A DNA stretch of 30,805 nucleotides from an uncultured virus (IMG/VR IMGVR_UViG_3300037418_000929) (lineage: Duplodnaviria; Heunggongvirae; Uroviricota; Caudoviricetes): the IMG/VR virus record IMGVR_UViG_3300037418_000929; one strand, written 5' to 3'. The translations under genes were made by a program, and so were the position numbers. Numbering within the stretch: position 1 is the first letter of the stretch; each line of letters opens with the position of its first letter. Under the pieces are notes generated by a model that saw only the letters and a program-made list of their open reading frames with translations, ran no database searches and was not told the DNA's origin. Positions 12,831 to 29,584 of the stretch are shown one piece after another.

Positions 12831-13000
12831 TCGTCTCTTTCGTTTCGTCTGAGTCCCATGAGTTCCTCGATGTCATCTAATGCACTCTCTATCTCATCTT
12901 CAAATGCGTCGATTAGCTCGGAGACTGGGAGTTGCAAGAACTCGGCAAGCTCCCAACTTTCGAAGTAGTCTTCGATACGCAGTTTTGTCTCCCTGTCCAC
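12827..13000 (-). CDS. Small acidic hypothetical protein (57 aa, not in ORF track)
   Basis: MDRETKLRIEDYFESWELAEFLQLPVSELIDAFEDEIESALDDIEELMGLRRNERDE; fills the gap exactly with an ATGA overlap. Confidence 0.75.
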   Translation of the reverse strand: MDRETKLRIEDYFESWELAEFLQLPVSELIDAFEDEIESALDDIEELMGLRRNERDE

Positions 13001-13708
13001 TTAACTAATCTTAGTCCTTTTACCTGTAGTCCATCCGAAACACTTCTGACACTGAAGCCGTTCAGTCTTGTAGTGTGCCGTCAGTCTAAATCCTCTCCGG
13101 TGTACACGAGCAGAAGTACACTTAGGACAACTACGACCGCTTCCAATGTTAGGATGATTGGTGATGTAGGGTCTAACACGTTTGTAAACTCCCTCGGTCA
13201 AACGACAGTCGTGGACGCAGTACTTCTTCATCTTCGCCTGTGCCTGCTCGTCTCCTGCCATGACCTTCTTCCACAGGCCGAACCCCTCGTGCTCCATCTT
13301 GTGTCCGATGTTCAGCATCGACGCGATGTGTTCTAGCTTGTTGGAGAAGAACCTAGTCTTGTGACGAAAGAATTTATATAAATCTACATGGCTAGGTGGA
13401 GGAGGAGGGCTGACGCCAGCAAGGATAAACTCAGTGACAAAATGCGGATAGTCAAACTTTTCTCCGTTGTAGGTTATGAGTACGTCAGCTTCTTCTAGAA
13501 GATCACGAGCCGCCTCTAGCATCCCTAGATAGCCGTGTTCCCACTCGGAGAAAAACATGATCTCTTTCTTACCGAGCCACTTGGCGGAGAAACAAAGCAG
13601 CCCCCCCGGCTCTTCAATTTGGACCGGTGCGATGTTCTCGCGCCAGCCTTTCCACACCCATGCTTTTGTAGGTCGGGTCTCTATATCGAAAGTGAGGATT
13701 TTACTCAT
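13001..13708 (-). CDS. RNase H-like (DnaQ/YprB-type) 3'-5' exonuclease with C-terminal Zn ribbon
   Basis: FDIET, YNGEKFD, YCVHD; CPKC...CQKC. Confidence 0.88.
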   Translation of the reverse strand: MSKILTFDIETRPTKAWVWKGWRENIAPVQIEEPGGLLCFSAKWLGKKEIMFFSEWEHGYLGMLEAARDLLEEADVLITYNGEKFDYPHFVTEFILAGVSPPPPPSHVDLYKFFRHKTRFFSNKLEHIASMLNIGHKMEHEGFGLWKKVMAGDEQAQAKMKKYCVHDCRLTEGVYKRVRPYITNHPNIGSGRSCPKCTSARVHRRGFRLTAHYKTERLQCQKCFGWTTGKRTKIS

Positions 13709-14109
13709 GGTTTCTTCCTTTTCTTGGGCTTCTTTTTAGGAACAAACCACCCCGTACCCTGCTCAAGGTACTCTGCCATTTTTCGCAGAAGAGTGCTATC
13801 CCGATGCCTACCTAGTAACCTGTGATTACAATAGGCGCAAAGAAGACCACGTATCTCACCAGTATAGTGGTCGTGATCTACGTGCATGTTTCGTTTTTGT
13901 TCCGAAGTGTGCTTATCACATATGGCACACTGATGATTTTGTTTATCCAACAACTCATCATATTGTTCTAGTGTTATGCCATAGGCATTCTTAAGATGTC
14001 TTCGCCGGTCCGCGAGCTTATCTCGTTCACGGTATCCCGTGTCCTTTCTCATTTTAGCCCGCCAGTTTCTCTGGTATTCGTTTTTGGTCTCGCGTTTCGT
14101 ATAACCCAA
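13705..14109 (-). CDS. Endonuclease VII-family (His-Me finger) nuclease
   Basis: YGITLEQY..Q...CAIC...HVDHDH.TG.IRGLLC..CN..LG. Confidence 0.92.
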   Translation of the reverse strand: MGYTKRETKNEYQRNWRAKMRKDTGYRERDKLADRRRHLKNAYGITLEQYDELLDKQNHQCAICDKHTSEQKRNMHVDHDHYTGEIRGLLCAYCNHRLLGRHRDSTLLRKMAEYLEQGTGWFVPKKKPKKRKKP

Positions 14110-14970
14110 CTACCAATCCTCTTTGGGAACCTTGGGTTCACGAACTACCTTTGTTAGAAACTTCGGTCCTGACGAATATGTGTAAACTTGAAGTCCCTGA
14201 CCACCGTTGGTGTCTCGATAGCAGTGGAATTTGTAGGAGCAGTATGAACAGCCAACATCGAGGACGCGGTTTCCTGAAACACCATCTGGCTTATCTGGAT
14301 AGCATCGAGGAGGTTCAACTTCACTTTCGAGGACGGAACGAAGATGCTTAATCCTTGGTGCGGGCTTGTTGGCGGCCAACACCGCAGGGCTAACTTCACA
14401 AAAAGCCACGTCGCCGTGAACCTTATCCGCCACCAGAAATCCGGCCCTGTCAGTACCGAGGGCGGCACGATAGCCAGAGATTTGCCCGATGTAGCCGAAG
14501 GGGTCATTCTCCACGAATGCACCCGATACGAACTTGTTGAAAGAATATGAACTAGCGGACTTAACGTCCACCGTAACACCGTCGATAACCGCGTCACAGT
14601 GTCCTTTAACGCCGTCCACTTCGACTTCAGCTTGTTCGTGAGTGACTTCATGTCCGGCTTCCTTAGCAAGAAAGAGCAGCAGCAACTCAATCAAGTCTCC
14701 GTAAAGGAACTTGAAGTGGGTTTTAGGAAGCAATCGTTCAGCTTTGTCCGCCGCGTGTTCTGCGTACCAAAGTTGTCTGGCAGGCCTACCGAGACTCGAA
14801 AACCTCAACGTTGCTGCTGCTCGCTCCCGACTGGAAAGCCGTCGACGCAGTAGCTCTTTGACGCTACCAGCAATCCAGTCGAGATTCTCTTCCGACGGCT
14901 CGTGGTTGGTGTCTTCGTCCAGCAGGGCGTAAATGTCAGACACCAGCGAGTCGACGGTTTTACTAGGCAT
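14110..14970 (-). CDS. PD-(D/E)XK (RecB/Cas4-like) exonuclease
   Basis: LRFSSLG, KGHCDAVIDG..VDVKSAS, Y..Q..GY, CSYCSYKFHC. Confidence 0.88.
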   Translation of the reverse strand: MPSKTVDSLVSDIYALLDEDTNHEPSEENLDWIAGSVKELLRRRLSSRERAAATLRFSSLGRPARQLWYAEHAADKAERLLPKTHFKFLYGDLIELLLLFLAKEAGHEVTHEQAEVEVDGVKGHCDAVIDGVTVDVKSASSYSFNKFVSGAFVENDPFGYIGQISGYRAALGTDRAGFLVADKVHGDVAFCEVSPAVLAANKPAPRIKHLRSVLESEVEPPRCYPDKPDGVSGNRVLDVGCSYCSYKFHCYRDTNGGQGLQVYTYSSGPKFLTKVVREPKVPKEDW

Positions 14971-15166
14971 TCGCTAGAGAGATACCCTTGCGGTCTGCCC
15001 CACGAATTGCGTCAGTCTTACGCGTGTACGTAGCGACTACACCGTCCGTAGTGTGAACGATTGCGTACTTGCCACTCGGGGTCTTCTCCAGAGTGAACGT
15101 CGGGGTTGTAGCCACGCTCGCGGGCGCTCGCAGAGTACGCTTTTCCTTGTTAAACCATCCAAACAT
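14963..15166 (-). CDS. Small hypothetical protein (67 aa, MFGWFNKEK...)
   Basis: AAAGGA SD before ATG 15166; the longer listed ORF runs through the ribozyme and is probably over-extended. Confidence 0.65.
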   Translation of the reverse strand: MFGWFNKEKRTLRAPASVATTPTFTLEKTPSGKYAIVHTTDGVVATYTRKTDAIRGADRKGISLANA

Positions 15167-15214
15167 ATTCTTACTTCCTTTCTTAAATAATTGTGCGGCT
15201 TGGCTCTCCGACCG

Positions 15215-15281
15215 ACCCACCTTGGGAGAGGCTATGCGACCCGAAGGTTTCTGCTTTCGCTTCATCAGGCAAATGGTGGGC
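15215..15281 (-). ncRNA. Type I hammerhead ribozyme variant (copy 1)
   Basis: UGC-CUGAUGA-A GC GAAA GC A-GAA-ACC UUCG GGU-C-GCA inside outer stem GCCCACC/GGUGGGU; intergenic. Confidence 0.72.
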
Positions 15282-15328
15282 TGCGTCCCCAACTCTACCG
15301 CACTGGGGGACCTGTGCTCTGTTAGTTC

Positions 15329-15883
15329 TTACTCAGGAACGTCGTCGTCCAACTCGTCGAGTGCATCCTGCACTGTCTTAAGCTGTTGCTTCGGCATTTC
15401 ATCCGTAGTGTACGTATCGCTGCCAAAGAACTCGTCATCCGTGCTGAGCGGAGCGAAGTCCTGTGAAACGTACGGAACTAGGTCGAGGACTCGAATCGCT
15501 CGGATGTAAACACCCTTCTTCTTGCCTACGCCGTAGTCCTTGACGACGAACTTTACGTCCACCTGCGAACCGTTGCCGATCAGGCGTCCGTCCCAAGCGT
15601 CGTTGTTGGCGTCCACGATGCGAAGAGGCTCGGCCTTTTCTCCGTTCGCCTTCATCTCTCGGTGCCGAAACGAAATGAACGTGTCCTCTCTGCTGTCACC
15701 TTCCTTAGGCTGCCGGAGGCGGTCTTGAATACCGAGCTTCTTGAGAAGGGTCCGACCTTCGGCGTCTGGCGTCAAGTCAATGGACCACTCTCGTTCGCCG
15801 GTGAAACTGTTCATCCTCGGGGCACCGATTACCTTAGCCCAGTGAGCAATTCCACGAACGATAATGTTTTCTGTACTAGCTAT
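15329..15883 (-). CDS. ssb: T7 gp2.5-like single-stranded DNA-binding protein; inferred ATA start at 15883
   Basis: RGIAHWAKV N-terminal motif, IGNGS.V.V, AIRVLDLVPY, acidic tail LDDDVPE. Confidence 0.85.
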   Translation of the reverse strand: MASTENIIVRGIAHWAKVIGAPRMNSFTGEREWSIDLTPDAEGRTLLKKLGIQDRLRQPKEGDSREDTFISFRHREMKANGEKAEPLRIVDANNDAWDGRLIGNGSQVDVKFVVKDYGVGKKKGVYIRAIRVLDLVPYVSQDFAPLSTDDEFFGSDTYTTDEMPKQQLKTVQDALDELDDDVPE

Positions 15884-15915
15884 TTTCTAAACCTTTCTTC
15901 TTTACTTACTCTCTA

Positions 15916-15944
15916 ATTATACCACGCTTTACTACAAATGTCAA
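15916..15944 (-). promoter_or_regulatory. Consensus sigma70 promoter upstream of ssb
   Basis: TTGACA-17 nt-TATAAT with GTGG before -10. Confidence 0.92.
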
Positions 15945-15956
15945 GAACTATTTACA

Positions 15957-17780
15957 CTAGTGGGTTTGACTCCACGTTAGTCCTGACTTGACGCTAGCTT
16001 CAATTGGCACGTTATAGTTAAATGATCGTCCTGCCCTTTCGAATGCTCCAAGAGCCAGTTCCGAAAATCGGTCAACATCTCCGGTAGCAACGACATATTG
16101 GAACTCGTCGTGAATTGAACCGACGAGCTTTGCGTCAAGTTTGTTTCGTCTGATTTCTTCATCTAAGTAAATACTCGCTTGTTTCATAATCCGTGATTCG
16201 TCCCCTTGGAGCAAGTACGGGATTACCATGTGGTCTGAAGATACTAGGACTTTACTTCCATCGCAGAGAGTAATTCGTCCAGTTCGTTTAAGCTCACCTT
16301 GGAGTCGAGCAATGAGTCGAGACAGTCCTGGAACCTGTTCAAAGAACTTTCGTTTAGCGTCTTTAGCTTCACGCAAAGGCACATCTGCTTCTGAAGCAAT
16401 TCGGGCATCTCCCGCCCCCATAAGTGTAGCGTAGACAATTGTTTTAGTAAGCGCTCTCGAAGCCAGTCCAAGTCGCTCTTGATTAGCTGTGTGTGGGTCA
16501 TTGGAAAGGATAGCCTTTGTAAATTCTTCGTCTTCTAGGTAGTGGGCAAGCACCCGCAACTGGATGCCTTTTGCGTCAACACCAACCAGCCGATAACGGT
16601 CCACATCGCCACAGGTCCAAAGATCGCGAGCTTCGTAAGTCCACGAACCGTCTTCTCCCAAATCAGGTCGTTCATTAGTGATCCGCACAGCAGGAATGTT
16701 AGCGGTGTTAGGATTGTCATGCCGGTAGCGAAGAGTGCTAGCCAACCACACGTTCCCATGTATTGCTCCTGTCTTTTCGTTGTAGGCGTTTAGCCAAGTG
16801 TTCACCATGTTGGCTCGGGAGTTAGTTACGACCCATTTAGCAAGTCGTCTACTTCCTTCATTGTTAGACGATTCGGCGAACTTGATGAGACTTTCTTCGT
16901 CGACTTTTGGGTTGCCCGCTTTAGTGTACGAAGTCGCCTTCCAGCCCGCCTCAGTGAGTTTGTCAACCCTTTGGCTTGGGCTTCCAAGATTGAACTCAAC
17001 CCAATCAAACGCGTCGTATCCTCCGTCGTCACGGAGTCGGAGTTCCGGATATTGCTCTCTATGTCTCTCATAGTTTGCAGTGCGACTTCCATCTTTCTTA
17101 AAGGCTTTTGCAAACGATCCAACACACCGAAACTCAGGTGGCCACTGTTTGTAGATTTCACGCTTTAGGTCCTCTTCACGGGTTCGAAGGAGTACGTAGA
17201 GTTCTTCCGCCCGTCGTTTGTCAAACGGAAAACCGTGCCTTCGCTGTTTATTCTGTATGATGTGCCACGAACGAGTCTCCAAAGCGGCCCCCCGTTCGGT
17301 GAAGCCAACATCTCGCATCCGTCGTGTGAGACGATTGAAAAGCCGTTTCGTAAGCGCTGTGTCGTTTTCACAGTACTGTCTCATTTCCTCCGAGTAGTGT
17401 GTGAAGTCCTTGAACGGAAGTTTAGGAAACCTTAACCGCCCACCCCAAACTTCCAAACTATGACCGCCAGTAAAGCTAGGGCTGTACAGCATAGAAAGGA
17501 CAAAGGTATCAACAAGTTTGGAGACACCAATTTTGCAACCCCAAATTTTGTTGAGGACCGGGGCGTCAAAGGCGACGATGTTATGCCCAACCAAATAGGC
17601 ATCTCGCGGTAGCCACTTGTTGAAATCTTCCGCACTGGTGAACGTCCTTTTCTCGTCTGTTACTGCGTTCTCAACACATACGACGAATATCTTCGTACAC
17701 TCGTCACGAAGCCCGTCCGTCTCTATGTCCAAAACCCAGTGGTTTTTTGTCGGAGTTAGATATTTTCCTTCTACGTTCAA
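15957..17780 (-). CDS. Family A (T7-like) DNA polymerase with 3'-5' exonuclease domain
   Basis: DIETDGL, GHNIVAFD, YCEND; motif A DAKGIQLR, motif B RALTKTIVY, motif C IHDE. Confidence 0.95.
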   Translation of the reverse strand: MNVEGKYLTPTKNHWVLDIETDGLRDECTKIFVVCVENAVTDEKRTFTSAEDFNKWLPRDAYLVGHNIVAFDAPVLNKIWGCKIGVSKLVDTFVLSMLYSPSFTGGHSLEVWGGRLRFPKLPFKDFTHYSEEMRQYCENDTALTKRLFNRLTRRMRDVGFTERGAALETRSWHIIQNKQRRHGFPFDKRRAEELYVLLRTREEDLKREIYKQWPPEFRCVGSFAKAFKKDGSRTANYERHREQYPELRLRDDGGYDAFDWVEFNLGSPSQRVDKLTEAGWKATSYTKAGNPKVDEESLIKFAESSNNEGSRRLAKWVVTNSRANMVNTWLNAYNEKTGAIHGNVWLASTLRYRHDNPNTANIPAVRITNERPDLGEDGSWTYEARDLWTCGDVDRYRLVGVDAKGIQLRVLAHYLEDEEFTKAILSNDPHTANQERLGLASRALTKTIVYATLMGAGDARIASEADVPLREAKDAKRKFFEQVPGLSRLIARLQGELKRTGRITLCDGSKVLVSSDHMVIPYLLQGDESRIMKQASIYLDEEIRRNKLDAKLVGSIHDEFQYVVATGDVDRFSELALGAFERAGRSFNYNVPIEASVKSGLTWSQTH

Positions 17781-17842
17781 ACTCTTTCATAATCCCTTTA
17801 ATTTCACGCCAGTGATCTGTGAACAACTGTTCCAGCGTTTCG

Positions 17843-19537
17843 TCAGAAAGCTCTTTGATCATCTCTGACTGACTCTCCGGCTTCGTACTGCTCGGCCTCT
17901 TCTTGACTGAGTTCCTCCAGTCTGCCCGTGATCCCATTATAGAAGAGGTAGCAGGCTGGTCCAGTCCTACCGCAGAAGCGGTTCTTTTCCACCACGACTT
18001 TAGTGACATTTCGTCTCCATTCGTTTAGGTCGGTGTTGTTCCTGTACAGCTTGATTACGATGTTAGCGAGCTGCTCGACACCGGCTGTGCCTCGGATTTG
18101 CCCTTGGCGGTTCTGGTGAATTACACAGATCAGCGCTAGATTGAGTTCCATACAAAGCGTCTTGGCTTTGGTGGCAATCTCGTCTAGCTGTTTCCTCTCG
18201 TCACCAGACTGATCACTAACCACAATGCTGAGGTGGTCCAGAACAATGTACTTACAGCCCAAAGCGTGCATGTGACGGATTTTGTCAAGGACTGCATCCA
18301 CTGTGTTGGAGCCAAAGTGATCCCAAATAACCACACGACTGCTGTTGATAACGTTGTCGTAAGCAGTTCGGAGTTCTTCGACAGTACGCTCAGTGTCAGG
18401 AAGATGATAAGGCTTATCAGCGTAAATAGACATAAGCCCGAGAGCAGTGTCGTAGTTGGGTTCTTCAAGGTGGATGAAACCCACCCCGTAACCCTTGTCC
18501 TTAAGCTCTTGATTGCTGAGAAGAGCATACTCTACTTCCTTGAGGACGCTTGTTTTTCCGATGCCAGTTTCCGCAGTGACGACAACCATCTCGGAGAGAC
18601 GAAGGCCGTAAGTGAGTCTGTTAAGACCCGCAAACGGATAGTCGACTTGGAAATGCTTAGGTCGGTTGATGATTTCGTCCCACATGTCGGAGCCGAGTTT
18701 GATCCCGTCCGGCATGTACACTGGTGCGTCCCACCACTCTTTGTGGAACTCTTTGACTTTGCCGTTTTTGAGGTAGTCATTGGGGTCTTTCTCCTCTTGG
18801 AACTTGACGATGCGGACTTTACCCGGCTTGAAGCCTAGCTCGGCTATTTGCTTGGCCGTCTTCTGCCCTACTTCGTCTCCGTCTAGCGCGAGAACAACAC
18901 GCTCAAAGCTGTCAAGATACTCAAAGTTGTTACGTACGTCACGTACAGCAGTCCCGCCAGAAGCAACGCTGACAACAGGATACCGACTCCCACAAAGTAC
19001 CCAAGCCGCCGCCGCATCGTACTCGCCTTCGACGACAGTGATTTGCTTAGCGCAGCCTTGAGGGAAAAGATGCTGTCCAAACAGTTCAACTTCATTGGCT
19101 TCACCTTCCCAAAAGAACTTCTTGTCTTTCGTACGTACTTTGTTACCGACGTGCTTGCCGTCTTTGAAGTACGGATACCTAGCTTCGACACGTTCGTCGT
19201 TCTGTACTAGGTCGATGCCGTACTTCTGGATAGCTGCCTTCGGGAGTGCCCTGTGTTCGGCAGCCCGGAATACGTCAGTTACCGGCGTGACAGGGTTAGA
19301 ATAAGCCCGGTTAGGCCGACCCCCACCGTCAGTCCCCAGATGAACTCCAAAATCATGTTCGCTGTTTGATAGCACATTGTTTTTATCCTTGTTAGGTGGT
19401 TGTCTGTATCCGCAGAGATTGTTGAAGCACTTGCCCCACCCGGTCTTCGGGTCAATGCTGAAGGCATCTGACGAACTACAGTTAGGACAAGGCAGGTGAC
19501 TTACTGATGATTGTCGCGTAGAAATTGAGCTATCCAC
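17843..19537 (-). CDS. T7 gp4-like primase-helicase
   Basis: CPNC..SDA Zn finger, TOPRIM VEGEYDA/DGD, Walker A ETGIGKT, LDHLS, VEKNRFCG.TG. Confidence 0.96.
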   Translation of the reverse strand: MDSSISTRQSSVSHLPCPNCSSSDAFSIDPKTGWGKCFNNLCGYRQPPNKDKNNVLSNSEHDFGVHLGTDGGGRPNRAYSNPVTPVTDVFRAAEHRALPKAAIQKYGIDLVQNDERVEARYPYFKDGKHVGNKVRTKDKKFFWEGEANEVELFGQHLFPQGCAKQITVVEGEYDAAAAWVLCGSRYPVVSVASGGTAVRDVRNNFEYLDSFERVVLALDGDEVGQKTAKQIAELGFKPGKVRIVKFQEEKDPNDYLKNGKVKEFHKEWWDAPVYMPDGIKLGSDMWDEIINRPKHFQVDYPFAGLNRLTYGLRLSEMVVVTAETGIGKTSVLKEVEYALLSNQELKDKGYGVGFIHLEEPNYDTALGLMSIYADKPYHLPDTERTVEELRTAYDNVINSSRVVIWDHFGSNTVDAVLDKIRHMHALGCKYIVLDHLSIVVSDQSGDERKQLDEIATKAKTLCMELNLALICVIHQNRQGQIRGTAGVEQLANIVIKLYRNNTDLNEWRRNVTKVVVEKNRFCGRTGPACYLFYNGITGRLEELSQEEAEQYEAGESVRDDQRAF

Positions 19538-21134: not shown

Positions 21135-21319
21135 AAACTCCCATTCTCGTCATAGATTGGAGGACACTTGGACAGAAATATCTGCCACTTACCTAAACAA
21201 TGGTCGAAATCACTGATACTGTCGCATCTCTTAACATACTCCAGCGAACCTTCTAAAAGAGAAATCATTTCATCCTTGCTCGGATATGAGTTGTCGAAAT
21301 CCGCTGGCGTAGTCATCAA
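21131..21319 (-). CDS. Small hypothetical protein
   Basis: Fills the gap between ATP-grasp and next gene; start uncertain. Confidence 0.5.
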   Translation of the reverse strand: MMTTPADFDNSYPSKDEMISLLEGSLEYVKRCDSISDFDHCLGKWQIFLSKCPPIYDENGSL

Positions 21320-22007
21320 CTGTACTCCCTTCTAATCCCGGTGCGGTGTTGACTTCGAGGACGTAGGCCCGCTGTCTTTCTTCGTTCCAGATAATATCCA
21401 CTGCTCCAAAATCCAATCCAAGGGCACCCGTGGCCTTGATTGCCTGTTCTTCAACTCCGACAGGGGGATTAACGTCATTCCTGACGAAGATAAAACCATT
21501 TCCATGATTCCTTACTTTCCAGTTTGGATTGTCGCAGCGTGGATCACGGGCCTTTCTTTGGACCAGCACGACTCGCTTTCCGACCACGTGAACTCGATAC
21601 TCAGCTTTCTTGGGGACGTACTGGACGTAGAGAGGAGCACTCGGCAAGTCTCCGGCGTCTCGCAGTTCGATACCTTCGCCAGAATGTCCTGAAAGCTTGT
21701 GCCGGACAACCGTAAGGCCTTTCCAGTTAACCTGAGATACGTCAGCAGCAAAACTTGGCGTAGAAACCCCCGCATCCTGAAATCTACGGAAGGATGCAAG
21801 CTTGTTGGCAGCGGTCGCAACGTTTCCCGCGAGGTTGAGGCATGATAGATTGCCTGCATTGGAATCTCCCCAGTTGATGATGATATCGCCGGGACGGCGT
21901 ATATACGTGGAGCCCTCTTTCTTGAGGACTTTACCCCCGAGGACGTCGGCCAACGCCTTGGCTGACCGACTCCCTTGCTTATACGGATTGATTCTGATGC
22001 GTGTCAT
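21270..22007 (-). CDS. ATP-grasp peptide ligase (RimK/glutathione synthetase-like)
   Basis: IINWG, ANKL, GHSGEGI, EYRVHV, LGLDFGAVD, VLEVNTAPG. Confidence 0.92.
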   Translation of the reverse strand: MTRIRINPYKQGSRSAKALADVLGGKVLKKEGSTYIRRPGDIIINWGDSNAGNLSCLNLAGNVATAANKLASFRRFQDAGVSTPSFAADVSQVNWKGLTVVRHKLSGHSGEGIELRDAGDLPSAPLYVQYVPKKAEYRVHVVGKRVVLVQRKARDPRCDNPNWKVRNHGNGFIFVRNDVNPPVGVEEQAIKATGALGLDFGAVDIIWNEERQRAYVLEVNTAPGLEGSTVDDYASGFRQLISEQG

Positions 22008-22009
22008 AC

Positions 22010-23113
22010 TTATCCTTGAGCAAAAGTATTGGTGTTAATCGTGAATGCGTGAGCTGCGTTTAGATTCTGTTGCAGGTTTTGCATCGCTTGCATCTCAGCT
22101 GCGTTCCACTGATTTCCGGCAAATGTGTTCCCGTCCTCAGGCAAGTCCGGCTCAACGGCAACCCCGTAACCTCCCGCCACAACACGTCGAGTCTTCTTCG
22201 CAGTCTTCCTACCGAAAGGGTCGGAGGCAACCTTAACAGGATTGAACGTCGACCAGTCTCTTGAGTACGCAATGTCCTGAGCGAACCGCATCCCCTCGAA
22301 CAGCGAAGCCGAGACGTTGACTTCGTTCTGTACTGCTTGAAGGATAGCCGGAGCTTCGTTGCCGAACAACTCCGTGAAGAACTCCATCGGACCTTGGATG
22401 GAGAACCGTTCGATGATGGTCCGCGGGTCTGTGTACTTCTCACTTTCGTCGTACAGACGTTTGAGGATGCGAACCCACTGCTTCACCGGAGCGGCTTCGG
22501 TCAGTCCTCGCATGGTTCGGAACTCCACGGACCCGAACTTGTACAGCGCGGAGACGTTCAAGGCCGAGTAGTGCAGCCCTTCGGTGTCCATGCCGTACTC
22601 GCCTTTGTTCTCGAACCAGTTCTTGACCTCCGTAATAATAGCCGGTCCGTCCTTGGCACGAATGCAGAACAAGTTGCCTGCCCTGTGGTCCCCGCAGAAG
22701 TGCGACAAGACTTCCTCACAGATGAACCACAGAGCCAGCAGAGACGCCAGCCGGTTCTGGTAGAACGAGAGTACGTTAAGGTGGACGTGGACGCTGGTAC
22801 GCACGCTCTCGGCGAGCACGGCCTTGTTGACGGCGAACTCAGCCCAAAGGGCGTCTACGGCTGCGTCAACCTCGGTGAAGTCCAGCGGCTTACTAAGTAC
22901 AAACTCGCCGTTGTCTGCTCCACGCAGAGAACCGTCTTGGTGGTATCCCCAGTACGTAGCCACCTGAGGCAGCTTCATCTTGGCGAACGCCCCCGGCGTC
23001 TTTGACTCGCACTCAATTTCGAGGCCGACGTGTCCTTTCTTGACCCGCAAGCCAAGTTGTCCGGCAATCGTCAGGTCTTCGCCGATCTTACTCGTCTTTT
23101 TAACAAAAACCAC
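22010..23113 (-). CDS. COOH-NH2 ligase (amidoligase, glutamine synthetase-like fold)
   Basis: GLEIECE, DGSL, EFV, TSVHVH, YSALN, GSVEFR; GGAG SD before GTG 23113. Confidence 0.9.
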   Translation of the reverse strand: MVFVKKTSKIGEDLTIAGQLGLRVKKGHVGLEIECESKTPGAFAKMKLPQVATYWGYHQDGSLRGADNGEFVLSKPLDFTEVDAAVDALWAEFAVNKAVLAESVRTSVHVHLNVLSFYQNRLASLLALWFICEEVLSHFCGDHRAGNLFCIRAKDGPAIITEVKNWFENKGEYGMDTEGLHYSALNVSALYKFGSVEFRTMRGLTEAAPVKQWVRILKRLYDESEKYTDPRTIIERFSIQGPMEFFTELFGNEAPAILQAVQNEVNVSASLFEGMRFAQDIAYSRDWSTFNPVKVASDPFGRKTAKKTRRVVAGGYGVAVEPDLPEDGNTFAGNQWNAAEMQAMQNLQQNLNAAHAFTINTNTFAQG

Positions 23114-23129
23114 CTTGTCGTCTCCAAAG

Positions 23130-23897
23130 TTATTGCCTGAGTTTAATGTCGTGGAACTGGCGGGTTTCTTCAACCGCCTCTTTAAGATGAGCAAACTTCT
23201 TGCCAAGTTCAACCGTAGGACGCTTGGTCGGAGGCACAATCCCAACCACGTCAGTTTTGTACCCGAGAAAGAAAGTGTCCATCGGACCACGGACAATCGC
23301 GAAGTTCCTGTGGCAAGCCACCGAAGTGTTCTCCACGTTCGGGTCCAACATGTTCTCCATGCACTCTTCAGCACTCGGATGATTTCCTTTCACACAGTCG
23401 TAGAACTCCGGTCCGACGAGGCTGTCGAGACTGTTGTTGCCCACTCTCGACCGATCCGTAGTGACGGGATTACATTCGACCATCTGGCGGATCAAACCCT
23501 GCTGAGTCCTGCGTTCGGGTGAACGCTCCAAGAACAGGGCCCTGCCGTTTCGGTTCATCATACCGAGGGAAAACGGACGGAACTTGTTAAACGCCGGACT
23601 GTTGGCTTGTTTACGAAGAAGCTTCGTGTCTTTGTTCTCTTCCATCCACTTGTCCAGTGCAGGACCAAGCCGCTGATCCTGTCCCGGATACTGGGACACC
23701 GCCAGTGGGAACTTTCCGTTTTTGGCTGCCTCGTTCACGCTGTCTTGCACCGGCCAAAGATACAGCCGGAAGATGCCGTCTGCCCTGTGATTGGTGATTG
23801 CGATAACTCGAACAGGTTCACCGTCGTACGTGACCACGGTGTCGTAGAGGCGACGTTGCATCTCCTCTAGGTTTTCGTAGAAGTTGGGATGGAGCAT
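23130..23897 (-). CDS. Hypothetical protein within ligase cluster
   Basis: 255-aa ORF tightly packed between the two COOH-NH2 ligases; no motif recognised. Confidence 0.75.
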   Translation of the reverse strand: MLHPNFYENLEEMQRRLYDTVVTYDGEPVRVIAITNHRADGIFRLYLWPVQDSVNEAAKNGKFPLAVSQYPGQDQRLGPALDKWMEENKDTKLLRKQANSPAFNKFRPFSLGMMNRNGRALFLERSPERRTQQGLIRQMVECNPVTTDRSRVGNNSLDSLVGPEFYDCVKGNHPSAEECMENMLDPNVENTSVACHRNFAIVRGPMDTFFLGYKTDVVGIVPPTKRPTVELGKKFAHLKEAVEETRQFHDIKLRQ

Positions 23898-23900
23898 GGT

Positions 23901-24740
23901 TTAAATCACTGACACAAGAGGATAGTGAATCGACCGGAACAACATGCTGGACCTGTCTCCTGTGTTAATCAGGTCGACGATTGCCGAGTTGTACTTCTTG
24001 TACGTCCCCTTGGACAACTCGTTGGTGGACATCGCATCCACGGCCCGCTGAAGCCTGTTCCAAACGTCTTTGCGGAGTTGCTTCGACGTAATCCAGAAGT
24101 TACTCAAGACCCTGTACTCAACTCCGTAAGGCTTCGGACGAAACGCCCCGGCCTTGCCATACAGTTGACGGCGGGTTACGTCTGCGTCCTTCTGAACAGA
24201 CCACGCCCCGAGAAACCAGTCGAGTTGCTTCACGAGATCGCGGCAGTGGCCTACGTGGATTTCGTCCGTCACCGGCATCGGCTCGTCTGCGCACCATCCG
24301 ATGTGGACGTGGCCCGCTGCGGTACGCAGGAGCGGGTCTTCCGTGGTATCTGGATACGGGTTCACTTCACCCGACCAAGCGTTGAAGTCAGGGTCACACC
24401 CCAACTCCTTCGCCTTAGGCGGTTGAGCATCCATGACCGACTCGGAGAAGCGAACAGCCGGTTCGATGCGGAACCCGTACCCCTTCGGCAGCATTCCTTT
24501 CAGCTGCTTCAGAACGGTTACGATGTTGTCGTTCCACTCGTCGAAAGAACTTGCGGGGTCGATGTTGAATTCTGCCGCCATTCCGTCCACCTGAACCGCA
24601 CCTTTGTCCACTTTGTGTGGCTCTTGTTTTGTTCCGGGGATCAGATCGACGGCAGAAACTAGTTCGTTCTTCTCGTTGGTAATGAACAACTCGGGATCAC
24701 AACCGAACGTGAACCCTTCGACACAGTGTAGTGCAGTCAT
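23901..24740 (-). CDS. phiEco32-like COOH-NH2 ligase type 2
   Basis: GCDPELF, DG.AAEFN, GCDPDFNAW, RTAAGHVHIG, RRQLYGKAGAFRPKPYGVEYRVLSNFW. Confidence 0.93.
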   Translation of the reverse strand: MTALHCVEGFTFGCDPELFITNEKNELVSAVDLIPGTKQEPHKVDKGAVQVDGMAAEFNIDPASSFDEWNDNIVTVLKQLKGMLPKGYGFRIEPAVRFSESVMDAQPPKAKELGCDPDFNAWSGEVNPYPDTTEDPLLRTAAGHVHIGWCADEPMPVTDEIHVGHCRDLVKQLDWFLGAWSVQKDADVTRRQLYGKAGAFRPKPYGVEYRVLSNFWITSKQLRKDVWNRLQRAVDAMSTNELSKGTYKKYNSAIVDLINTGDRSSMLFRSIHYPLVSVI

Positions 24741-24759
24741 AGTCAGTCTTCTCCGTTAG

Positions 24760-24939
24760 TTACATAAGCCAATAAATTATTTGAGCAGGGATCGCATTCC
24801 CTAGAATTAGCGTGATGAAGTACAAAGCCCACCCCAAAGGCCCCTCTACAACTTCAACGCCTAGATACAGGGCTAGGCTGAAGACAGCCACTTCGTAGGC
24901 GGCTATAAAGCAAATCAACAACGCAATGGCGATAATCAT
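24760..24939 (-). CDS. Small two-TM membrane protein (59 aa, not in ORF track)
   Basis: MIIAIALLICFIAAYEVAVFSLALYLGVEVVEGPLGWALYFITLILGNAIPAQIIYWLM; AGGAG SD. Confidence 0.75.
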   Translation of the reverse strand: MIIAIALLICFIAAYEVAVFSLALYLGVEVVEGPLGWALYFITLILGNAIPAQIIYWLM

Positions 24940-24948
24940 TGATAGCTC

Positions 24949-26040
24949 CTAAGCAACTTGAGGTAGTTCTTCTACGTAAATTCTCGTCTTCTCTGAGTTG
25001 GAGAACGACGAGTGATCGGGGCAGAGAATGATTTCGTCTTTCTTATAAATCGTAATTCCTTTATCTCCGTACTCGATCTTCGCCTCGCAGAACGTACAAC
25101 CGTTGGCTGCCATTCCTTCGAACTCCTCACGAGTGATGTGCCCCGCGTACGGATTCACCTTGGACCCTTCAACGGTTACGAAAGGAAGAGGATCAGTCCT
25201 TCCACGGGAGATCGTCGTCGAGGAATTCGTCTTCTTCCACGGGCTTTTGGATGGGGTGTGGACTCCAAAGTTTGGCGAGGCTTGAGAGAAAGGGGCCGGC
25301 TCCTTACCCTCCAGCTTCTTGCAGACGGGTTTCTGAGCCTTGCCTGACATGAAGTCGGAGATGCTGTACTTGAAGTGGTAGTCCTCTGCGAACGCAAAGA
25401 AGCGGCAGCCTTGCTTGTCAGTTTTGATTTCCCTGTTGGCAAGGTGCCGGATACCAGAGTGAATCGTCTGCCACTCGGAGGCGTAGTACAGGAAGCGGTT
25501 GTCCTTAGTCACCGCGTTCCACAGACTGCGCTCTTTGTTGCGGAGGAAGTTAATCGTGCCTTCTTTAAGATCAACCCACGTAATCGCCCACGCACCTTCG
25601 CACAGCTTAATCGTCTCTTCAATGCCGATGGTGGCGATTGCAGCGATCAGCGCCATGCTGTCCACGGGAAACTTCTCGCCGACGGCCTTCTCTAAGTCGT
25701 TGTGGCTGGTGCCGAACAGCGTCCCGTTGTGTGCCCCGACGATGTGTCCGATGTGATACGGATGCGCGTTGAAGTCGTTGACACCACCGCGAGTTGCCTT
25801 CCGGTTGTGACCTAGAAAAGCACACGACTGATTGGCGTTAAGAGCCTCCTTGAACTTCGGCATTTCAAAAAGGTGCAGCGGGTGACTGGCCATTTTCGCA
25901 ATCCGGACGTCTCCGTTCGAGCGGATCGCAGCCATTCCCGTAGAGTCTTCGCCCCTCCAGAAATCGTCCAACAGCATTCTCTTCATCGGCTCTTCGTCAC
26001 AGTACTGAAGAGCACCAACCATTCCTACGAGTCCGCACAT
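24949..26040 (-). CDS. Class II (Ntn) glutamine amidotransferase with C-terminal Cys/His knuckle
   Basis: N-terminal MCG, RG.DSTG, GHNRKAT, NAHP, HNGT, VDS, RN.ER; CTFC...CPDH. Confidence 0.92.
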   Translation of the reverse strand: MCGLVGMVGALQYCDEEPMKRMLLDDFWRGEDSTGMAAIRSNGDVRIAKMASHPLHLFEMPKFKEALNANQSCAFLGHNRKATRGGVNDFNAHPYHIGHIVGAHNGTLFGTSHNDLEKAVGEKFPVDSMALIAAIATIGIEETIKLCEGAWAITWVDLKEGTINFLRNKERSLWNAVTKDNRFLYYASEWQTIHSGIRHLANREIKTDKQGCRFFAFAEDYHFKYSISDFMSGKAQKPVCKKLEGKEPAPFSQASPNFGVHTPSKSPWKKTNSSTTISRGRTDPLPFVTVEGSKVNPYAGHITREEFEGMAANGCTFCEAKIEYGDKGITIYKKDEIILCPDHSSFSNSEKTRIYVEELPQVA

Positions 26041-26897
26041 TATTCTTTCTCTCCCTTCTTGGCCGGACTCGGAAGGCCGAGAATGACCGAACGCTTGTGT
26101 CTGTAACGCTGTTCTTCAAGATACACGTGAGGGTTGTTGAGGATGTACTTCTCAACCATTTCGAGGCACCAGACGGTGTAGCGGATGTACCCCGCGTACT
26201 CGGGATGCCCTTGGAAGCCGAGGCAGCAAGTTTCAGGAAGGAAAAACGCCTCGACGTCCTTCGTCCTGCCCGTTTGCTTCTGAGACGGCTCAGGACCATA
26301 CCACCGCTCGTCGGAGCAGAAGATGAACCCGAGGACTTCCATCCCCTCGCCTTGGATTACGGCTTGATGGTGAGTGGATGAAATCTTGTCGAGGTATTGC
26401 CCGTTCCCCGGTGTAGGCACCATTGGATGCTCGCCGTTGTGCTTGTCGAGGTGTTGAATAAGTTTGTATCCGTTCATCGCAGCCAAGAACTGCGCCCCAC
26501 GGCAAATCCCGAGCATCGGAATCCGCTTCTTCAAGCACTCGACGTACAGCTCCATGTCCCGCTTGTCTCGGGCGGGATCGACGCTGGTGAGTGCGTGTGG
26601 CTTTTCGTGATAGATGACCGGATCGACGTCCGCCCCACCGCAGAACACAACGAGGTCGGCCTCGTCCACTGTGTTGGCTTTGTAACACCGAGCCCTGCCG
26701 AACATCGCCCCCATTTGAGCTTCGTAAGTGTCCGGCTCGGAAATGTACACGTTCATGTACAGTTCGGGGTACTTCACCAGCGAAGACTTCATCAGCTGAA
26801 CTTCGGTCTTACCTTCGGCTTCAGACACTTCTGGCTCTTTCTTCGGTTTGTTGCTATTCGCAGCCATTGCGAGAGCCTTTCGTCTACGCGTGGACAT
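26040..26897 (-). CDS. Class I glutamine amidotransferase / peptidase C26 (PuuD-like gamma-glutamyl hydrolase)
   Basis: GGADVDP, GICRGAQ, STHHQ, FQGHPE; AAGGAGG SD before ATG 26897. Confidence 0.9.
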   Translation of the reverse strand: MSTRRRKALAMAANSNKPKKEPEVSEAEGKTEVQLMKSSLVKYPELYMNVYISEPDTYEAQMGAMFGRARCYKANTVDEADLVVFCGGADVDPVIYHEKPHALTSVDPARDKRDMELYVECLKKRIPMLGICRGAQFLAAMNGYKLIQHLDKHNGEHPMVPTPGNGQYLDKISSTHHQAVIQGEGMEVLGFIFCSDERWYGPEPSQKQTGRTKDVEAFFLPETCCLGFQGHPEYAGYIRYTVWCLEMVEKYILNNPHVYLEEQRYRHKRSVILGLPSPAKKGEKE

Positions 26898-28901: not shown

Positions 28902-29471
28902 GGATGCTTCTCCGTTGCTCGTGTGTGTGAAAAATCGTGATAGATGAATGTGAGCAGTTGTTAACCGAGAATGCTCAGCTCGTCGGCGCGTGGATGGTTG
29001 AGGGGAGAGCTTAAGTCACCCTCTGTCGTGATCCAGTGGCCTAACTGAAATTGTTTTAGGGGAGATTGTCTCTCGACCCACAGGACGTGGGGAGATTACG
29101 TTAAATCGTAAGGTTCTTCACTCGGGGCTTGGAGCCGCAGAGGAACCTCGCTTCGATCTTACTTGTACTTGTGGAAGTGACCATCGTTCCGGTCTTTCTC
29201 GTTGACGTCTCACTGTTGTCGTGAGACTTGCCCTCGTGCAGCTTGAGCCCCCGCCCTCGCTGTTTGCTTAAAGTTGGCTGGCTTAAATGGCTCTTATCCG
29301 TCGGCCAGCCAGCGACGGAACCATTCGCACTAATTACAAAACTATCTCTATCTCTCTATGTCTCTAGTTTAACTTAAACTCTTAAGTCTTCATAGTCCGT
29401 TCCTCCTTTATTCACACGTCGGCGTGAATACTTCAAAAGAATAGGTGGTGAGCTTAGGTACTCATTTATTC
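28902..29471. ncRNA. Structure-rich non-coding leader with pseudoknots
   Basis: No credible long ORF; many hairpins; H-type pseudoknots at 28951-28982 and 29275-29325. Confidence 0.4.
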
Positions 29472-29539
29472 CCCGACTGGGAGGACTCCACGCGACGCCG
29501 TAGCGTTTCTGCTTGCGCTTCGTCAGGCGAAATGTCGGG
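29472..29539 (-). ncRNA. Type I hammerhead ribozyme variant (copy 2)
   Basis: CGC-CUGACGA-A GC GCAA GC A-GAA-ACGC UACG GCGU-C-GCG inside outer stem CCCGAC/GUCGGG; intergenic. Confidence 0.72.
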
Positions 29540-29584
29540 CCAGATGCTCCAATGTCCTCACCTCGGGAGCCAACGCCTCTTTAA

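What the first reader, a model, noticed from the sequence alone, without database searches (positions are those of the whole stretch)
15215..15281. Hammerhead ribozyme variant (copy 1) between ssb and the nuclease genes
Seen: the minus strand reads GCCCACC AUU UGC CUGAUGA A-GC-GAAA-GC-A GAA ACC-UUCG-GGU C GCA...GGUGGGU. Established: CUGANGA...GAAA...UH with three stems is the hammerhead core. Predicted cleavage is after GUC, between 15238 and 15237. Unusual: stem II is only 2 bp plus a GNRA loop, and the normal R10.1-Y11.1 pair is replaced by A.A (or by two symmetric A insertions). Inference: cleavage would separate the ssb message from the downstream cistrons and leave a 5'-OH end on them.
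Basis: partly seen in the sequence, partly recalled or inferred. Interest (0 to 1): 0.85.

Follow-up and report, generated by a model that had tools for sequence, protein, structure and literature searches.

The report
Hammerhead ribozyme variant in pseudoknot scaffold
This is a real relative of the self-cutting hammerhead RNA, sitting between two phage replication genes, with an unusual A-A mismatch at the family's most conserved base pair and embedded in a larger knotted RNA frame that also exists in other phages without any ribozyme.

Summary
The sequence is exactly as described (minus strand 15281-15215), and the predicted cut lies between 15238 and 15237. It is not chance. A second copy lies at about 29570-29447. 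The 22-base core with stem II AGCGNAAGCA occurs in 96 IMG/VR stretches, in both type I and type III hammerhead topologies.

Stems I and III covary strongly. Sister elements with the same flanks but a normal G-C stem II are recognised by Rfam hammerhead models. The A-A forms are missed.

New here:
- A10.1-A11.1 is a recurrent, selected state. In this lineage only 5 of 24 elements keep G-C.
- The hammerhead is only the centre of a roughly 130-nt cassette (15320-15193). Four further covarying helices form two interleaved pseudoknots.
- The same scaffold occurs without any hammerhead in Microcystis phage Mwe-JY26 and 17 IMG/VR loci, often beside tRNA genes, and matches no Rfam family.

Self-cleavage is inferred, not shown. 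The extra helices would hold the two products together, so simple separation of the messages is doubtful. The nearest relative phage lacks the element.

Verdict: a genuine hammerhead variant (new variant of a known kind) in an apparently undescribed scaffold.

The parts
15193..15320 (-). Whole cassette of copy 1: upstream conserved box, scaffold helices e, d, a, c, and the hammerhead (stems I proximal, II, III).
   Evidence: About 85% identical over this span to the cassette of G002/L251, with the differences concentrated in compensating helix positions, while the flanking SSB-like proteins are 45% identical. Architecture shared with 70 of 127 type I candidates.
15314..15320 (-). Upstream conserved box AGAGCAC, just 5' of helix e.
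   Evidence: The same or a similar box (AAAGAGC / AAGAGGCG) precedes the cassettes of all subclasses. Function unknown.
15306..15311 (-). Helix e, 5' arm (GUCCCC).
   Evidence: Pairs with 15285-15290. The equivalent helix covaries in 47 class-A1 cassettes (helix 1: 90.8% paired, 5 of 6 pairs with double changes) and in subclass A2/A3 sequences.
15285..15290 (-). Helix e, 3' arm (GGGGAC).
15297..15303 (-). Helix d, 5' arm, lying in the loop of hairpin e.
   Evidence: Pairs with 15193-15199. It compensates against G002 (GUGCGG/CCGCAC versus GUACGG/CCGUAC). The equivalent helix has 7 of 7 pairs with double changes.
15193..15199 (-). Helix d, 3' arm; the 3' end of the cassette, 27 nt before the ATG at 15166.
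15275..15281 (-). Helix a (distal stem I), 5' arm.
Evidence: Covaries: 6 of 6 pairs with double changes, 97.9% paired.
15215..15221 (-). Helix a (distal stem I), 3' arm.
15269..15271 (-). Proximal stem I, 5' arm (UGC).
   Evidence: Pairs with 15235-15237. Stem I proximal pairs covary in 37 sequences (helix 1).
15262..15268 (-). Hammerhead core CUGAUGA (C3-A9).
   Evidence: Position 7 varies (U, C, A, G) among relatives, as expected for CUGAnGA.
15252..15261 (-). Stem II module: A10.1, two G-C pairs, GAAA loop, A11.1.
   Evidence: The identical module is found in type I and type III elements. A..A-flanked stems II of 2 to more than 6 bp occur in relatives.
15248..15251 (-). Core G12 A13 A14 and A15.1.
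15239..15248 (-). Stem III hairpin (ACC, UUCG loop, GGU), with A15.1-U16.1 as the closing pair.
   Evidence: Stem III covaries (helix 3; helix 6).
15237..15238 (-). Predicted cleavage site: after C17 (15238), before G15237.
   Evidence: Position of H17 in the hammerhead consensus. H17 is C in 87 and U in 5 of 92 classified loci. Cleavage itself was not tested.
15235..15237 (-). Proximal stem I, 3' arm (GCA).
15225..15230 (-). Helix c, 5' arm (CUCUCC), inside what looked like the 3' internal loop of stem I.
   Evidence: Pairs with 15204-15209 across helix a (pseudoknot). The equivalent helix is 98.2% paired with 5 of 6 pairs showing double changes, and 100% paired in ribozyme-less scaffolds.
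15204..15209 (-). Helix c, 3' arm (GGAGAG).
15329..15814 (-). Upstream gene: 161-aa putative ssDNA-binding protein (stop codon 15331-15329).
   Evidence: No Pfam/PHROG hit. Atlas neighbours carry Enc34/T7-type SSB families. Homologues in L250 (70% identical) and G002 (45% identical).
14963..15166 (-). Downstream 67-aa ORF (ATG 15166, RBS AAGGAAG), first gene after the cassette and followed by the nuclease genes.
   Evidence: A homologous start is seen in L250. The longer TTG-started ORF 14963-15292 would run through the RNA element and is taken as spurious.
29447..29570 (-). Copy 2: same architecture (subclass A1), CUGACGA core at 29526-29520, GCAA loop, C17 at 29494. Helix c has one C.U mismatch.

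Best explanation
The element is a type I hammerhead ribozyme by descent, transcribed from the minus strand as part of the long replication-gene transcript. All catalytic-core nucleotides are present. Stem III is a 3-bp hairpin with a UUCG loop. Stem II is a fixed module: an A.A opposition at 10.1/11.1, two G-C pairs and a GNRA loop.

Stem I is not a simple helix. Its distal part (a), a helix between its 3' 'internal loop' and downstream sequence (c), a long-range helix (d) and an upstream hairpin (e) form a double-pseudoknot scaffold of about 130 nt around the ribozyme.

Most likely mechanism:
1. The scaffold forms co-transcriptionally and insulates the ribozyme from its flanks.
2. It presents a docking surface for the short GNRA-capped stem II.
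3. The core then cleaves after C15238, giving a 2',3'-cyclic phosphate on the SSB-side RNA and a 5'-OH on G15237, 71 nt before the next start codon.
4. The two ends stay buried in the base-paired scaffold until unwound, which would shield both new ends.

Shown here: the anatomy, the homology, the covariation, and selection on the core. Inferred: the cleavage itself, the docking, and the consequences for message stability or expression.
For: Anatomy and recurrence:
- Exact anatomy at the stated coordinates. Two copies in the window against 0.075 expected.
- The 22-base pattern occurs in 96 IMG/VR stretches. Of these, 48 were classed type I (3 look like coding coincidences), 44 type III, and 4 unclassed (1 is a real type I with a bulged stem I; 3 look coding). 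The same stem II module therefore serves two circular permutations of one three-way junction.

Covariation:
- 37 type I sequences: 90.2% of cells paired against 23-40% when partners are slid, 71 double-change cells against 7-26, 0 of 500 shuffles as high.
- 47 cassettes, all seven helices: 90.5% against 35-43%, 443 double-change cells against 63-122, 0 of 500.

Homology to accepted hammerheads:
- Sister loci with the same flanks but a G-C-closed stem II score with Rfam: L224 39.1 and L228 37.9 bits (Hammerhead_3); L138 35.4 and L136 34.1 bits (Hammerhead_1, cut-off 34); others 19-29 bits.

Selection on the core without asking for it:
- 10 of 10 loci fetched only through a 23-mer of the 3' scaffold carry an intact CUGAUGA...GAAAC...GUC and an A..A-flanked stem II of 2 to more than 6 bp.
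- Mycobacterium phage Gaia carries the cassette with U3 and A8 together, the compensating core pair described in PMC3088659 (section 8).

Strand and context:
- G.U wobbles in helices a and d of copy 1, and many UG/GU cells, fit RNA of this strand only.
- The element is intergenic, co-oriented with the genes, 18 nt after a stop codon and 27 nt before a start. No promoter-like or terminator-like site lies in 14800-15500.
- Hammerheads flanking genes in prophages, and stems II of two pairs, are documented (PMC3088659, passages read).
Against: - No cleavage data of any kind were obtained.
- The G10.1-C11.1 pair, called the most conserved pair of the consensus apart from A15.1-U16.1 (PMC3088659), is replaced by A.A. 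That paper says U.U supported more activity than any other mispair in an earlier mutational study, so A.A may be slow in a minimal context.
- No Rfam hammerhead model reports copy 1 even at E<=10 on 301 bases, nor any of 15 A.A loci, nor genomes G001-G004.
- Thermodynamic folding does not favour the hammerhead fold: -14.4 against an MFE of -20.7 kcal/mol for copy 1, -16.8 against -28.9 for copy 2. Z-scores are -0.07 to +1.38, no better than shuffles.
- Helices a, b and d would hold the products together, which argues against simple release of two messages.
- The element is absent at the syntenic site of the closest relative found, L250, so it is dispensable for this gene pair.
- The scaffold exists without any ribozyme, so part of the conservation may serve a function unrelated to cleavage.
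Confidence: 0.65

Rival explanations
1. The scaffold is the functional unit and the hammerhead is an accessory that only nicks it, perhaps conditionally. The scaffold could be a nuclease-blocking or end-protecting fold, a processing punctuation mark in tRNA and mRNA arrays, or a binding site for a protein or small ligand. The weakened 10.1-11.1 position would make cleavage depend on scaffold folding, so the element would act as a switchable rather than a constitutive cutter.
For: - The same four scaffold helices occur without a ribozyme in Microcystis phage Mwe-JY26 and in 17 IMG/VR loci. They covary strongly: 95.5% paired against 37-49% slid, 94 double-change cells, 0 of 500 shuffles.
- The single-stranded boxes of the scaffold are almost invariant.
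- The ribozyme occupies exactly the gap between helix a and the linker that serves as the stem I 3' arm.
- In this scaffold class only 5 of 24 hammerheads taken without regard to stem II keep G10.1-C11.1 (7 A.A, 7 U.U, 2 G.U, 2 C.A, 1 A.G).
- After cleavage the products remain paired by about 17 bp in copy 1.
Against: - No ligand, protein or nuclease partner is indicated by any result.
- The type III elements use the same stem II without this scaffold, so the A.A module does not need it.
- Core conservation and the U3-A8 compensation show selection for catalysis itself.
- A ribozyme-less form of the A2 subclass, to which copy 1 belongs, was not looked for.
Confidence: 0.2
2. A decayed hammerhead: descended from an active ribozyme but crippled by loss of the 10.1-11.1 pair and shortening of stem II, and kept only as passive intergenic structure.
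For: - A.A at the most conserved pair (for the conservation).
- No Rfam score.
- The fold is not favoured energetically.
- The element is missing in the nearest relative.
- Copy 2 has a mismatch in helix c.
Against: - The identical module recurs in at least 86 loci that fold as hammerheads, across unrelated flanks and in two topologies.
- A..A persists while the rest of stem II changes length and sequence with compensation.
- All core positions are intact in 10 of 10 core-independent loci.
- U3-A8 compensation in phage Gaia.
Decay would not produce these patterns.
Confidence: 0.1
3. A chance resemblance, or a DNA-level signal (promoter, recombination site or repeat) rather than an RNA.
For: - The conserved linker of subclass A1 (GAAUAACUG..CCUAG) superficially recalls single-subunit polymerase promoters. 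This is my own recollection, not a tool result.
- Some of the exact pattern matches elsewhere lie in purine-rich coding sequence.
Against: - Descriptor hits far exceed shuffles.
- Compensatory changes in seven helices.
- G.U wobbles are specific to one strand.
- No sigma-70-like promoter or terminator in the region.
Confidence: 0.03

Closest known systems
Type I hammerhead ribozymes between genes of phages and prophages (Perreault et al. 2011, PMC3088659; Rfam RF00163, clan CL00010)
   Same: CUGANGA...GAAA...UH core, three stems, open stem I, intergenic position in phage operons, stem II as short as two pairs. Sister cassettes with G-C-closed stem II score with these models.
   Different: A.A at 10.1/11.1. 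No score with any Rfam hammerhead model. Stem I is elaborated into a double-pseudoknot scaffold, a feature not mentioned in the parts of that paper I read (passages, section 8).
Natural hammerheads with a U10.1-U11.1 mismatch (PMC3088659, section 8, read)
   Same: A non-Watson-Crick opposition at the first pair of stem II in natural elements. U..U forms (7 of 24) share the very same scaffold class as the A..A forms.
   Different: Here the opposition is purine-purine (A.A). I found no mention of this in the texts searched: literal-sequence search, A10.1/A11.1 search, G10.1/C11.1 search, and the supplements of PMC3088659 except file 11, which could not be read.
Pseudoknot-containing (PK) hammerhead (PMC11300833, passages read)
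   Same: A hammerhead whose active fold depends on a pseudoknot rather than a loop-loop contact.
   Different: There the pseudoknot replaces helix II and G10.1-C11.1 is kept. Here helix II is an ordinary, very short hairpin, and the pseudoknots involve stem I and the flanks.
Non-circularly permuted hammerheads with several pseudoknots (Eckert et al. 2023, PMC10085705, abstract and section 13 read)
   Same: Hammerhead cores embedded in multi-pseudoknot structures found by covariation.
   Different: Those pseudoknots are the hammerhead stems themselves in a rearranged order. The present element has the classical type I order (blocks C, G, S), and its pseudoknots are additional helices.

Membership tests
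Hammerhead ribozyme class (Rfam clan CL00010) | Core C3 U4 G5 A6 N7 G8 A9 | tested here: met
   CUGAUGA at 15268-15262. N7 varies among relatives.
Hammerhead ribozyme class (Rfam clan CL00010) | Core G12 A13 A14, A15.1-U16.1 pair, H17 at the cleavage site | tested here: met
   GAAA at 15251-15248, U16.1 at 15239, C17 at 15238. A-U is invariant in 37 and 47 sequences, though partly forced by the search patterns.
Hammerhead ribozyme class (Rfam clan CL00010) | Three helices around the core, supported by covariation | tested here: met
   Stems I and III. Stem II is invariant in the exact-match set. It covaries in relatives: second and third pairs GC/UA/CG and CG/GC/UA (helix 5), and UC/GA in L163.
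Hammerhead ribozyme class (Rfam clan CL00010) | Watson-Crick 10.1-11.1 pair (G-C in nearly all members) | tested here: not met
   A15261 opposite A15252. This is not an absolute criterion: an active natural U.U exception is documented, and sister cassettes differ only at this pair.
Hammerhead ribozyme class (Rfam clan CL00010) | Tertiary contact between stems I and II | not testable with these tools
   A GNRA loop on stem II and a structured stem I are present. No 3D modelling of RNA was available.
Hammerhead ribozyme class (Rfam clan CL00010) | Site-specific self-cleavage giving 2',3'-cyclic phosphate and 5'-OH | not testable with these tools
   The only RNA run found holds contigs of relatives and does not cover the cassette.
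Rfam RF00163 Hammerhead_1 (as modelled) | Covariance-model score at or above 34 bits | tested here: not met
   No match at gathering score in the window, at E<=10 on 15100-15400, or at E<=1 in G001-G004. Positive controls in sister loci reach 34.1-35.4 bits.
Double-pseudoknot scaffold described here (no published name found) | Helices e, d, a, c in the order e-d-e'-a-(insert)-c-a'-c'-d' | tested here: met
   Copy 1: all four helices of 6-7 bp. Family-level covariation. Copy 2 meets e, d and a, but helix c has a mismatch.

The most novel reading that the evidence does not exclude
The double-pseudoknot scaffold is an independent functional RNA class of phages. It could be a sensor for a ligand or protein, or a nuclease-resistant end-protecting fold. 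Hammerheads have been repeatedly inserted into its apical gap, so cleavage is gated by scaffold folding. That would make these cassettes natural allosteric or scaffold-dependent self-cleaving ribozymes, with the relaxed 10.1-11.1 position as the tuning point.
Probability: 0.12. Interest if true: 0.9.

Novelty: new variant of a known kind. Interest (0 to 1): 0.6.

Why it matters
Three reasons:

1. **Model blind spot.** Current covariance models overlook a sizeable, clearly selected branch of hammerheads because of one mismatched pair. At least 86 of the 96 IMG/VR stretches fold as hammerheads, and copies occur in cultured phages such as Mycobacterium phage Gaia, where the region is unannotated. 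Surveys of ribozymes in viromes therefore undercount them.

2. **A testable structural question.** The base pair regarded as the most conserved in the family is replaced by A.A, U.U, C.A, A.G or G.U in 19 of 24 members of one scaffold lineage. It can now be tested directly what that pair does when tertiary structure is supplied by a different frame.

3. **An unnamed RNA motif.** The ribozyme sits in a covarying double-pseudoknot RNA that also exists alone, often inside phage tRNA arrays. This motif has no Rfam match. Its relation to RNA processing, and to the long-sought natural allosteric ribozymes, can be addressed with simple bench assays.

Tried and rejected
- **Rfam.** No hit at gathering thresholds over the whole window or in E-value mode over the site and 15 A.A loci. 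I do not take this as evidence against, because the same search finds the G-C-closed sisters.
- **Weak Rfam hits near the site.** PhotoRC-I (E 0.11, plus strand 15358-15398) and DUF2815 RNA (E 7.2, covering only the RBS region 15164-15210) are far below their cut-offs and treated as chance.
- **Thermodynamic folding**. The hammerhead fold is not the MFE and z-scores are not negative. This is uninformative for a pseudoknotted ribozyme with 2-3 bp stems.
- **RNA evidence.** Only one metatranscriptome run held 5% of the words. Laid, it gave six contigs of relatives (85-95% alike) over the nuclease and SSB-like coding parts. None covered 15004-15323, and one diverges just past the SSB-like stop. 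This says nothing about transcription or ends of the cassette.
- **GenBank phages.** No blastn match for 13000-18000 or for the copy 1 cassette.
- **Synteny.** The only close relative retrieved through the SSB-like protein lacks the element.
- **Partner-swap control** for helices a and c. Weak, because many sequences share similar arms (own 6.9 against swapped 6.0 bp). Replaced by column-based counts and a shuffle control.
- **A further helix** between the GCGUGG box and the region after d' in subclass A1: no consistent pairing.
- **Second GGTAGAGTT 9-mer** at 10143 (minus strand): lies in the ribonucleotide reductase gene and has no scaffold features.
- **Type III-like descriptor hit** at 23074: inside the amidoligase gene with weak stems, taken as chance.
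- **Literature.**
  - Literal sequence strings: 0 relevant papers.
  - A10.1/A11.1: nothing relevant.
  - Supplements of PMC3088659: no occurrence, but file 11 was not read.
  - My recollection that the 'drum' motif accompanies hammerheads was not borne out by PMC5737381.
- **Earlier scan notes.** Nothing for this genome or these sequences.
- **Covariance model.** I did not build one of my own.

Full report
**1. Observation**

In order it contains:
- a 7-nt arm, AUU, and UGC;
- the heptamer CUGAUGA;
- a ten-base module made of A, two G-C pairs closed by GAAA, and A;
- GAA;
- a 3-bp hairpin with a UUCG loop that begins with A and ends with U;
- C, then GCA;
- a 14-nt stretch, then the complement of the first arm.

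C17 is base 15238. The element lies between the stop codon of a 161-aa gene (15331-15329) and the ATG of a 67-aa ORF (15166). That ORF is followed by genes for a Cas4-domain exonuclease, endonuclease VII and a polymerase exonuclease subunit.

The 161-aa protein has no Pfam or PHROG match. Its nearest protein-atlas clusters carry Enc34/T7-gp2.5-type ssDNA-binding families, so 'ssb' is a reasonable label but not a proven one.

**2. Not chance**

A descriptor scan for type I and type III hammerheads on both strands of the window found three sites:
- this site;
- a second one with the same stem II (core 29526-29520, C17 at 29494);
- one weak hit inside a coding region.

200 shuffles averaged 0.075 hits. 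The virus record nearest to the window (G001, 48.9 kb) has the same two copies.

The 22-base pattern spanning the core and stem II occurs in 96 IMG/VR stretches and in 22 stretches of the species-representative genomes. Four of the 22 are real cassettes, all in Rhizobiales/Hyphomicrobiales records. The rest are purine-rich coding sequence or a tRNA spacer of Acinetobacter lwoffii.

**3. It is a hammerhead by descent**

*Two topologies.* Of the 96 IMG/VR stretches:
- 48 fold as type I (three look like coding coincidences);
- 44 fold as type III, where the identical stem II module follows a closed stem I hairpin and stem III is formed by the flanks;
- 4 were unclassified (one is a real type I with a bulged stem I; three look coding).

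One fixed module serving two circular permutations is what a three-way-junction ribozyme predicts. A linear sequence signal would not behave this way.

*Stem II left free.* The same flanks carry ordinary hammerheads. The type I pattern gave 121 loci, mostly with G...C-closed stems II. 24 had A..A-flanked stems and 7 had U..U. The type III pattern gave 30 loci: 22 with the A.A module and 8 with normal stems.

*Rfam recognises the sisters.* Scores were L224 39.1 and L228 37.9 bits (Hammerhead_3), L138 35.4 and L136 34.1 bits (Hammerhead_1, cut-off 34), and others 19-29 bits. Rfam reports nothing for copy 1 or for 15 loci with the exact A.A module. Among nine further A..A- or C..A-flanked loci, only L166 scored (HH9, 20.6 bits). 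Genomes G001-G004 gave no hit.

*Core-independent sample.* Ten loci were fetched only through a 23-mer of the 3' scaffold, with no core constraint. All ten have an intact core and an A..A-flanked stem II of two to more than six pairs.

*Compensating core pair.* Mycobacterium phage Gaia carries the cassette with U3 and A8 together. This is the compensating core pair described by Perreault et al. (PMC3088659, section 8).

**4. Covariation**

| Alignment | Cells paired | Slid controls | Double-change cells | Slid controls | Shuffles as high |
|---|---|---|---|---|---|
| 37 type I sequences, stems I, II, III | 90.2% | 23-40% | 71 | 7-26 | 0 of 500 |
| 47 cassettes of subclass A1, seven helices | 90.5% | 35-43% | 443 | 63-122 | 0 of 500 |

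The search patterns fixed some columns: the core, the first two pairs of stem III, and part of stem I. Those columns say nothing either way.

**5. The 10.1-11.1 position**

Perreault et al. call this the most conserved pair apart from A15.1-U16.1. They report a natural U.U exception and note that U.U was the best-tolerated mispair in earlier mutagenesis.

In the A1 scaffold lineage, 24 elements were taken without regard to stem II. Their 10.1-11.1 states are:
- G-C: 5
- A.A: 7
- U.U: 7
- G.U: 2
- C.A: 2
- A.G: 1

A.A persists while the rest of stem II changes. Examples are UC/GA in L163, three pairs in AGCC..GGCA, and five or six pairs elsewhere. The mismatch is therefore a maintained state of this lineage and not a lesion.

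I found no description of an A.A form in the searches, nor in the supplements of PMC3088659 that could be read (file 11 was not read).

**6. The element is larger than reported**

The 14-nt '3' internal loop' of stem I pairs with sequence downstream of the distal stem. This is helix c (15230-15225 with 15209-15204), and it forms a pseudoknot with the distal stem, helix a.

Upstream there is a hairpin, helix e (15311-15306 with 15290-15285). Its loop pairs with sequence after c'. This is helix d (15303-15297 with 15199-15193).

The whole cassette spans about 15320-15193. It is about 85% identical to a cassette in record G002, with differences that compensate in helices a and d. The neighbouring SSB-like proteins are only 45% identical.

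A per-sequence helix finder recovers all four extra helices in 70 of 127 type I candidates, against 289 of 2540 (11%) when the 3' partners are shuffled. A handful of the 70 are false candidates.

Column-based counts on the A1 alignment give 83-98% pairing for helices e, d, a and c, and 5-7 pairs per helix with changes on both sides.

Copy 2 has e, d and a, but one C.U mismatch in c.

**7. The scaffold exists without the ribozyme**

A blastn search with copy 2 hit Microcystis phage Mwe-JY26. There helices e, d, a and c and the conserved linkers are present, but the segment from the stem I 5' arm to C17 is missing. The scaffold sits between two tRNA genes.

A pattern that only fits this short form found 17 IMG/VR loci. 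Fifteen distinct sequences give 95.5% pairing against 37-49% slid, 94 double-change cells, and 0 of 500 shuffles as high.

No Rfam family matches them at E<=10. tRNA genes lie within 120 nt in 5 of 16 loci (ARAGORN) or 6 of 14 (Rfam).

Among the hammerhead-bearing type I loci, 6 of 35 have tRNA genes on the same strand within 300 nt. L080 lies inside a tRNA array.

The hammerhead thus looks like a module inserted between helix a and a linker that doubles as the 3' arm of stem I. Alternatively, the short forms are precise deletions that remained under selection.

**8. Mechanism proposed**

The anatomy, the homology, and selection on both core and helices are shown. The rest is inferred.

1. The scaffold folds co-transcriptionally.
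2. It isolates the ribozyme from arbitrary flanks, which suits an element that appears in unrelated contexts and is absent from the nearest relative.
3. It offers a surface for the GNRA loop of the very short stem II.
4. The core cleaves after C15238.

Self-cleaving ribozymes leave a 2',3'-cyclic phosphate and a 5'-OH (abstract of PMC8782182, seen in the listing). The downstream RNA would begin at G15237, 71 nt before its start codon.

Helices a (7 pairs), b (3) and d (7) join the two products. They should therefore stay together until unwound, so both new ends would be buried. I take this as an argument for protected ends or controlled processing rather than simple release of the two messages.

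From memory, not from a call: A at 10.1 keeps a purine N7 at the position that, with the A9 phosphate, binds a divalent ion in hammerhead structures.

**9. Against, and open**

- There is no cleavage evidence.
- Folding energies do not favour the hammerhead fold.
- Rfam does not score it.
- A.A may be slow.
- The element is dispensable at this locus.
- The only RNA run found does not cover it.
- A ribozyme-less form of subclass A2, to which copy 1 belongs, was not sought.
- All comparative samples come from pattern scans, so they are not exhaustive and carry the biases stated above.

**10. Comparison and verdict**

- *What it works like:* an intergenic phage hammerhead as described in 2011.
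- *Membership:* it meets every core criterion except the Watson-Crick 10.1-11.1 pair and the Rfam score. I therefore file it as a hammerhead variant, but not as a member of RF00163 as currently modelled.
- *Distinct from two other pseudoknotted forms:* in the PK hammerhead the pseudoknot replaces helix II and G10.1-C11.1 is kept. In the non-circular permutations the pseudoknots are the rearranged stems themselves.
- *Apparently new:* the A.A state as a lineage character, and the double-pseudoknot scaffold that also stands alone.

Noticed in passing
window 29447-29570 (minus strand): Second cassette (subclass A1): CUGACGA core, GCAA loop, C17 at 29494. All scaffold helices are present, but helix c has one C.U mismatch. 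It follows a 209-aa ORF of unknown function.
   Followed up: partly
window 28902-29440 (minus strand): About 540 nt downstream of copy 2 with no ORF above 31 aa on the transcribed strand, no tRNA and no Rfam hit. A strong RBS-like AAAGGAGG is followed by a 3-codon ORF.
   Followed up: no
L275 (Microcystis phage Mwe-JY26, PP438418.1 about 99010-99115) and L277-L293: Ribozyme-less double-pseudoknot scaffold of about 95 nt with almost invariant linkers. It matches no Rfam family and is often wedged between tRNA genes. Several copies are enclosed by an additional outer helix of 12-17 bp (L278, L281, L293).
   Followed up: partly
L274 (Mycobacterium phage Gaia NC_026590.1, 77872-77986): Unannotated cassette between tRNA-Ser and gene 147, with a U3/A8 covarying core and an A..A-flanked 3-bp stem II.
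   Followed up: partly
L001, L009, L014-L019 and 36 other loci: 44 type III hammerheads with the same A.A stem II, a 6-7 bp stem I hairpin with a UGUGUR loop, and an RBS plus ATG 15-40 nt downstream, in AT-rich viral contigs.
   Followed up: partly
L008, L022, L029, L039, L047, L074, L082 (downstream of helix d'): Subclass A3 cassettes are followed by a conserved CUGACA box and a covarying hairpin with a GGAAAGAC loop region.
   Followed up: no
L255, L257, L263, L265, L268, L269 (five Acinetobacter lwoffii stretches and one short contig, L265, filed as Sagittula salina): The exact 22-mer lies in a spacer between two tRNA genes of the chromosome. No convincing stem I, and stem III would use the T-arm of the upstream tRNA. 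Unclear whether this is chance or a degenerate type III element.
   Followed up: no
L116 294-342 (minus strand): Weak match to the permuted tmRNA model (27.2 bits, cut-off 47) just upstream of a G-C-closed cassette. ARAGORN finds no tmRNA there.
   Followed up: partly
window 15329-15345 compared with L250 1690-1705: The last codons of the SSB-like gene differ from the 70%-identical relative exactly where the cassette-bearing sequence begins. The string around the stop codon recurs about 60 nt before the cassette in G002 (about 390 nt past its SSB-like stop). This hints at a mobile insertion with its own border.
   Followed up: partly
window 21270-27330 (minus strand): Cluster of amidoligase, COOH-NH2 ligase, two glutamine amidotransferases, gamma-glutamyl cyclotransferase and an S6-glutaminyl-transferase-like ATP-grasp gene, upstream of the replication module.
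   Followed up: no
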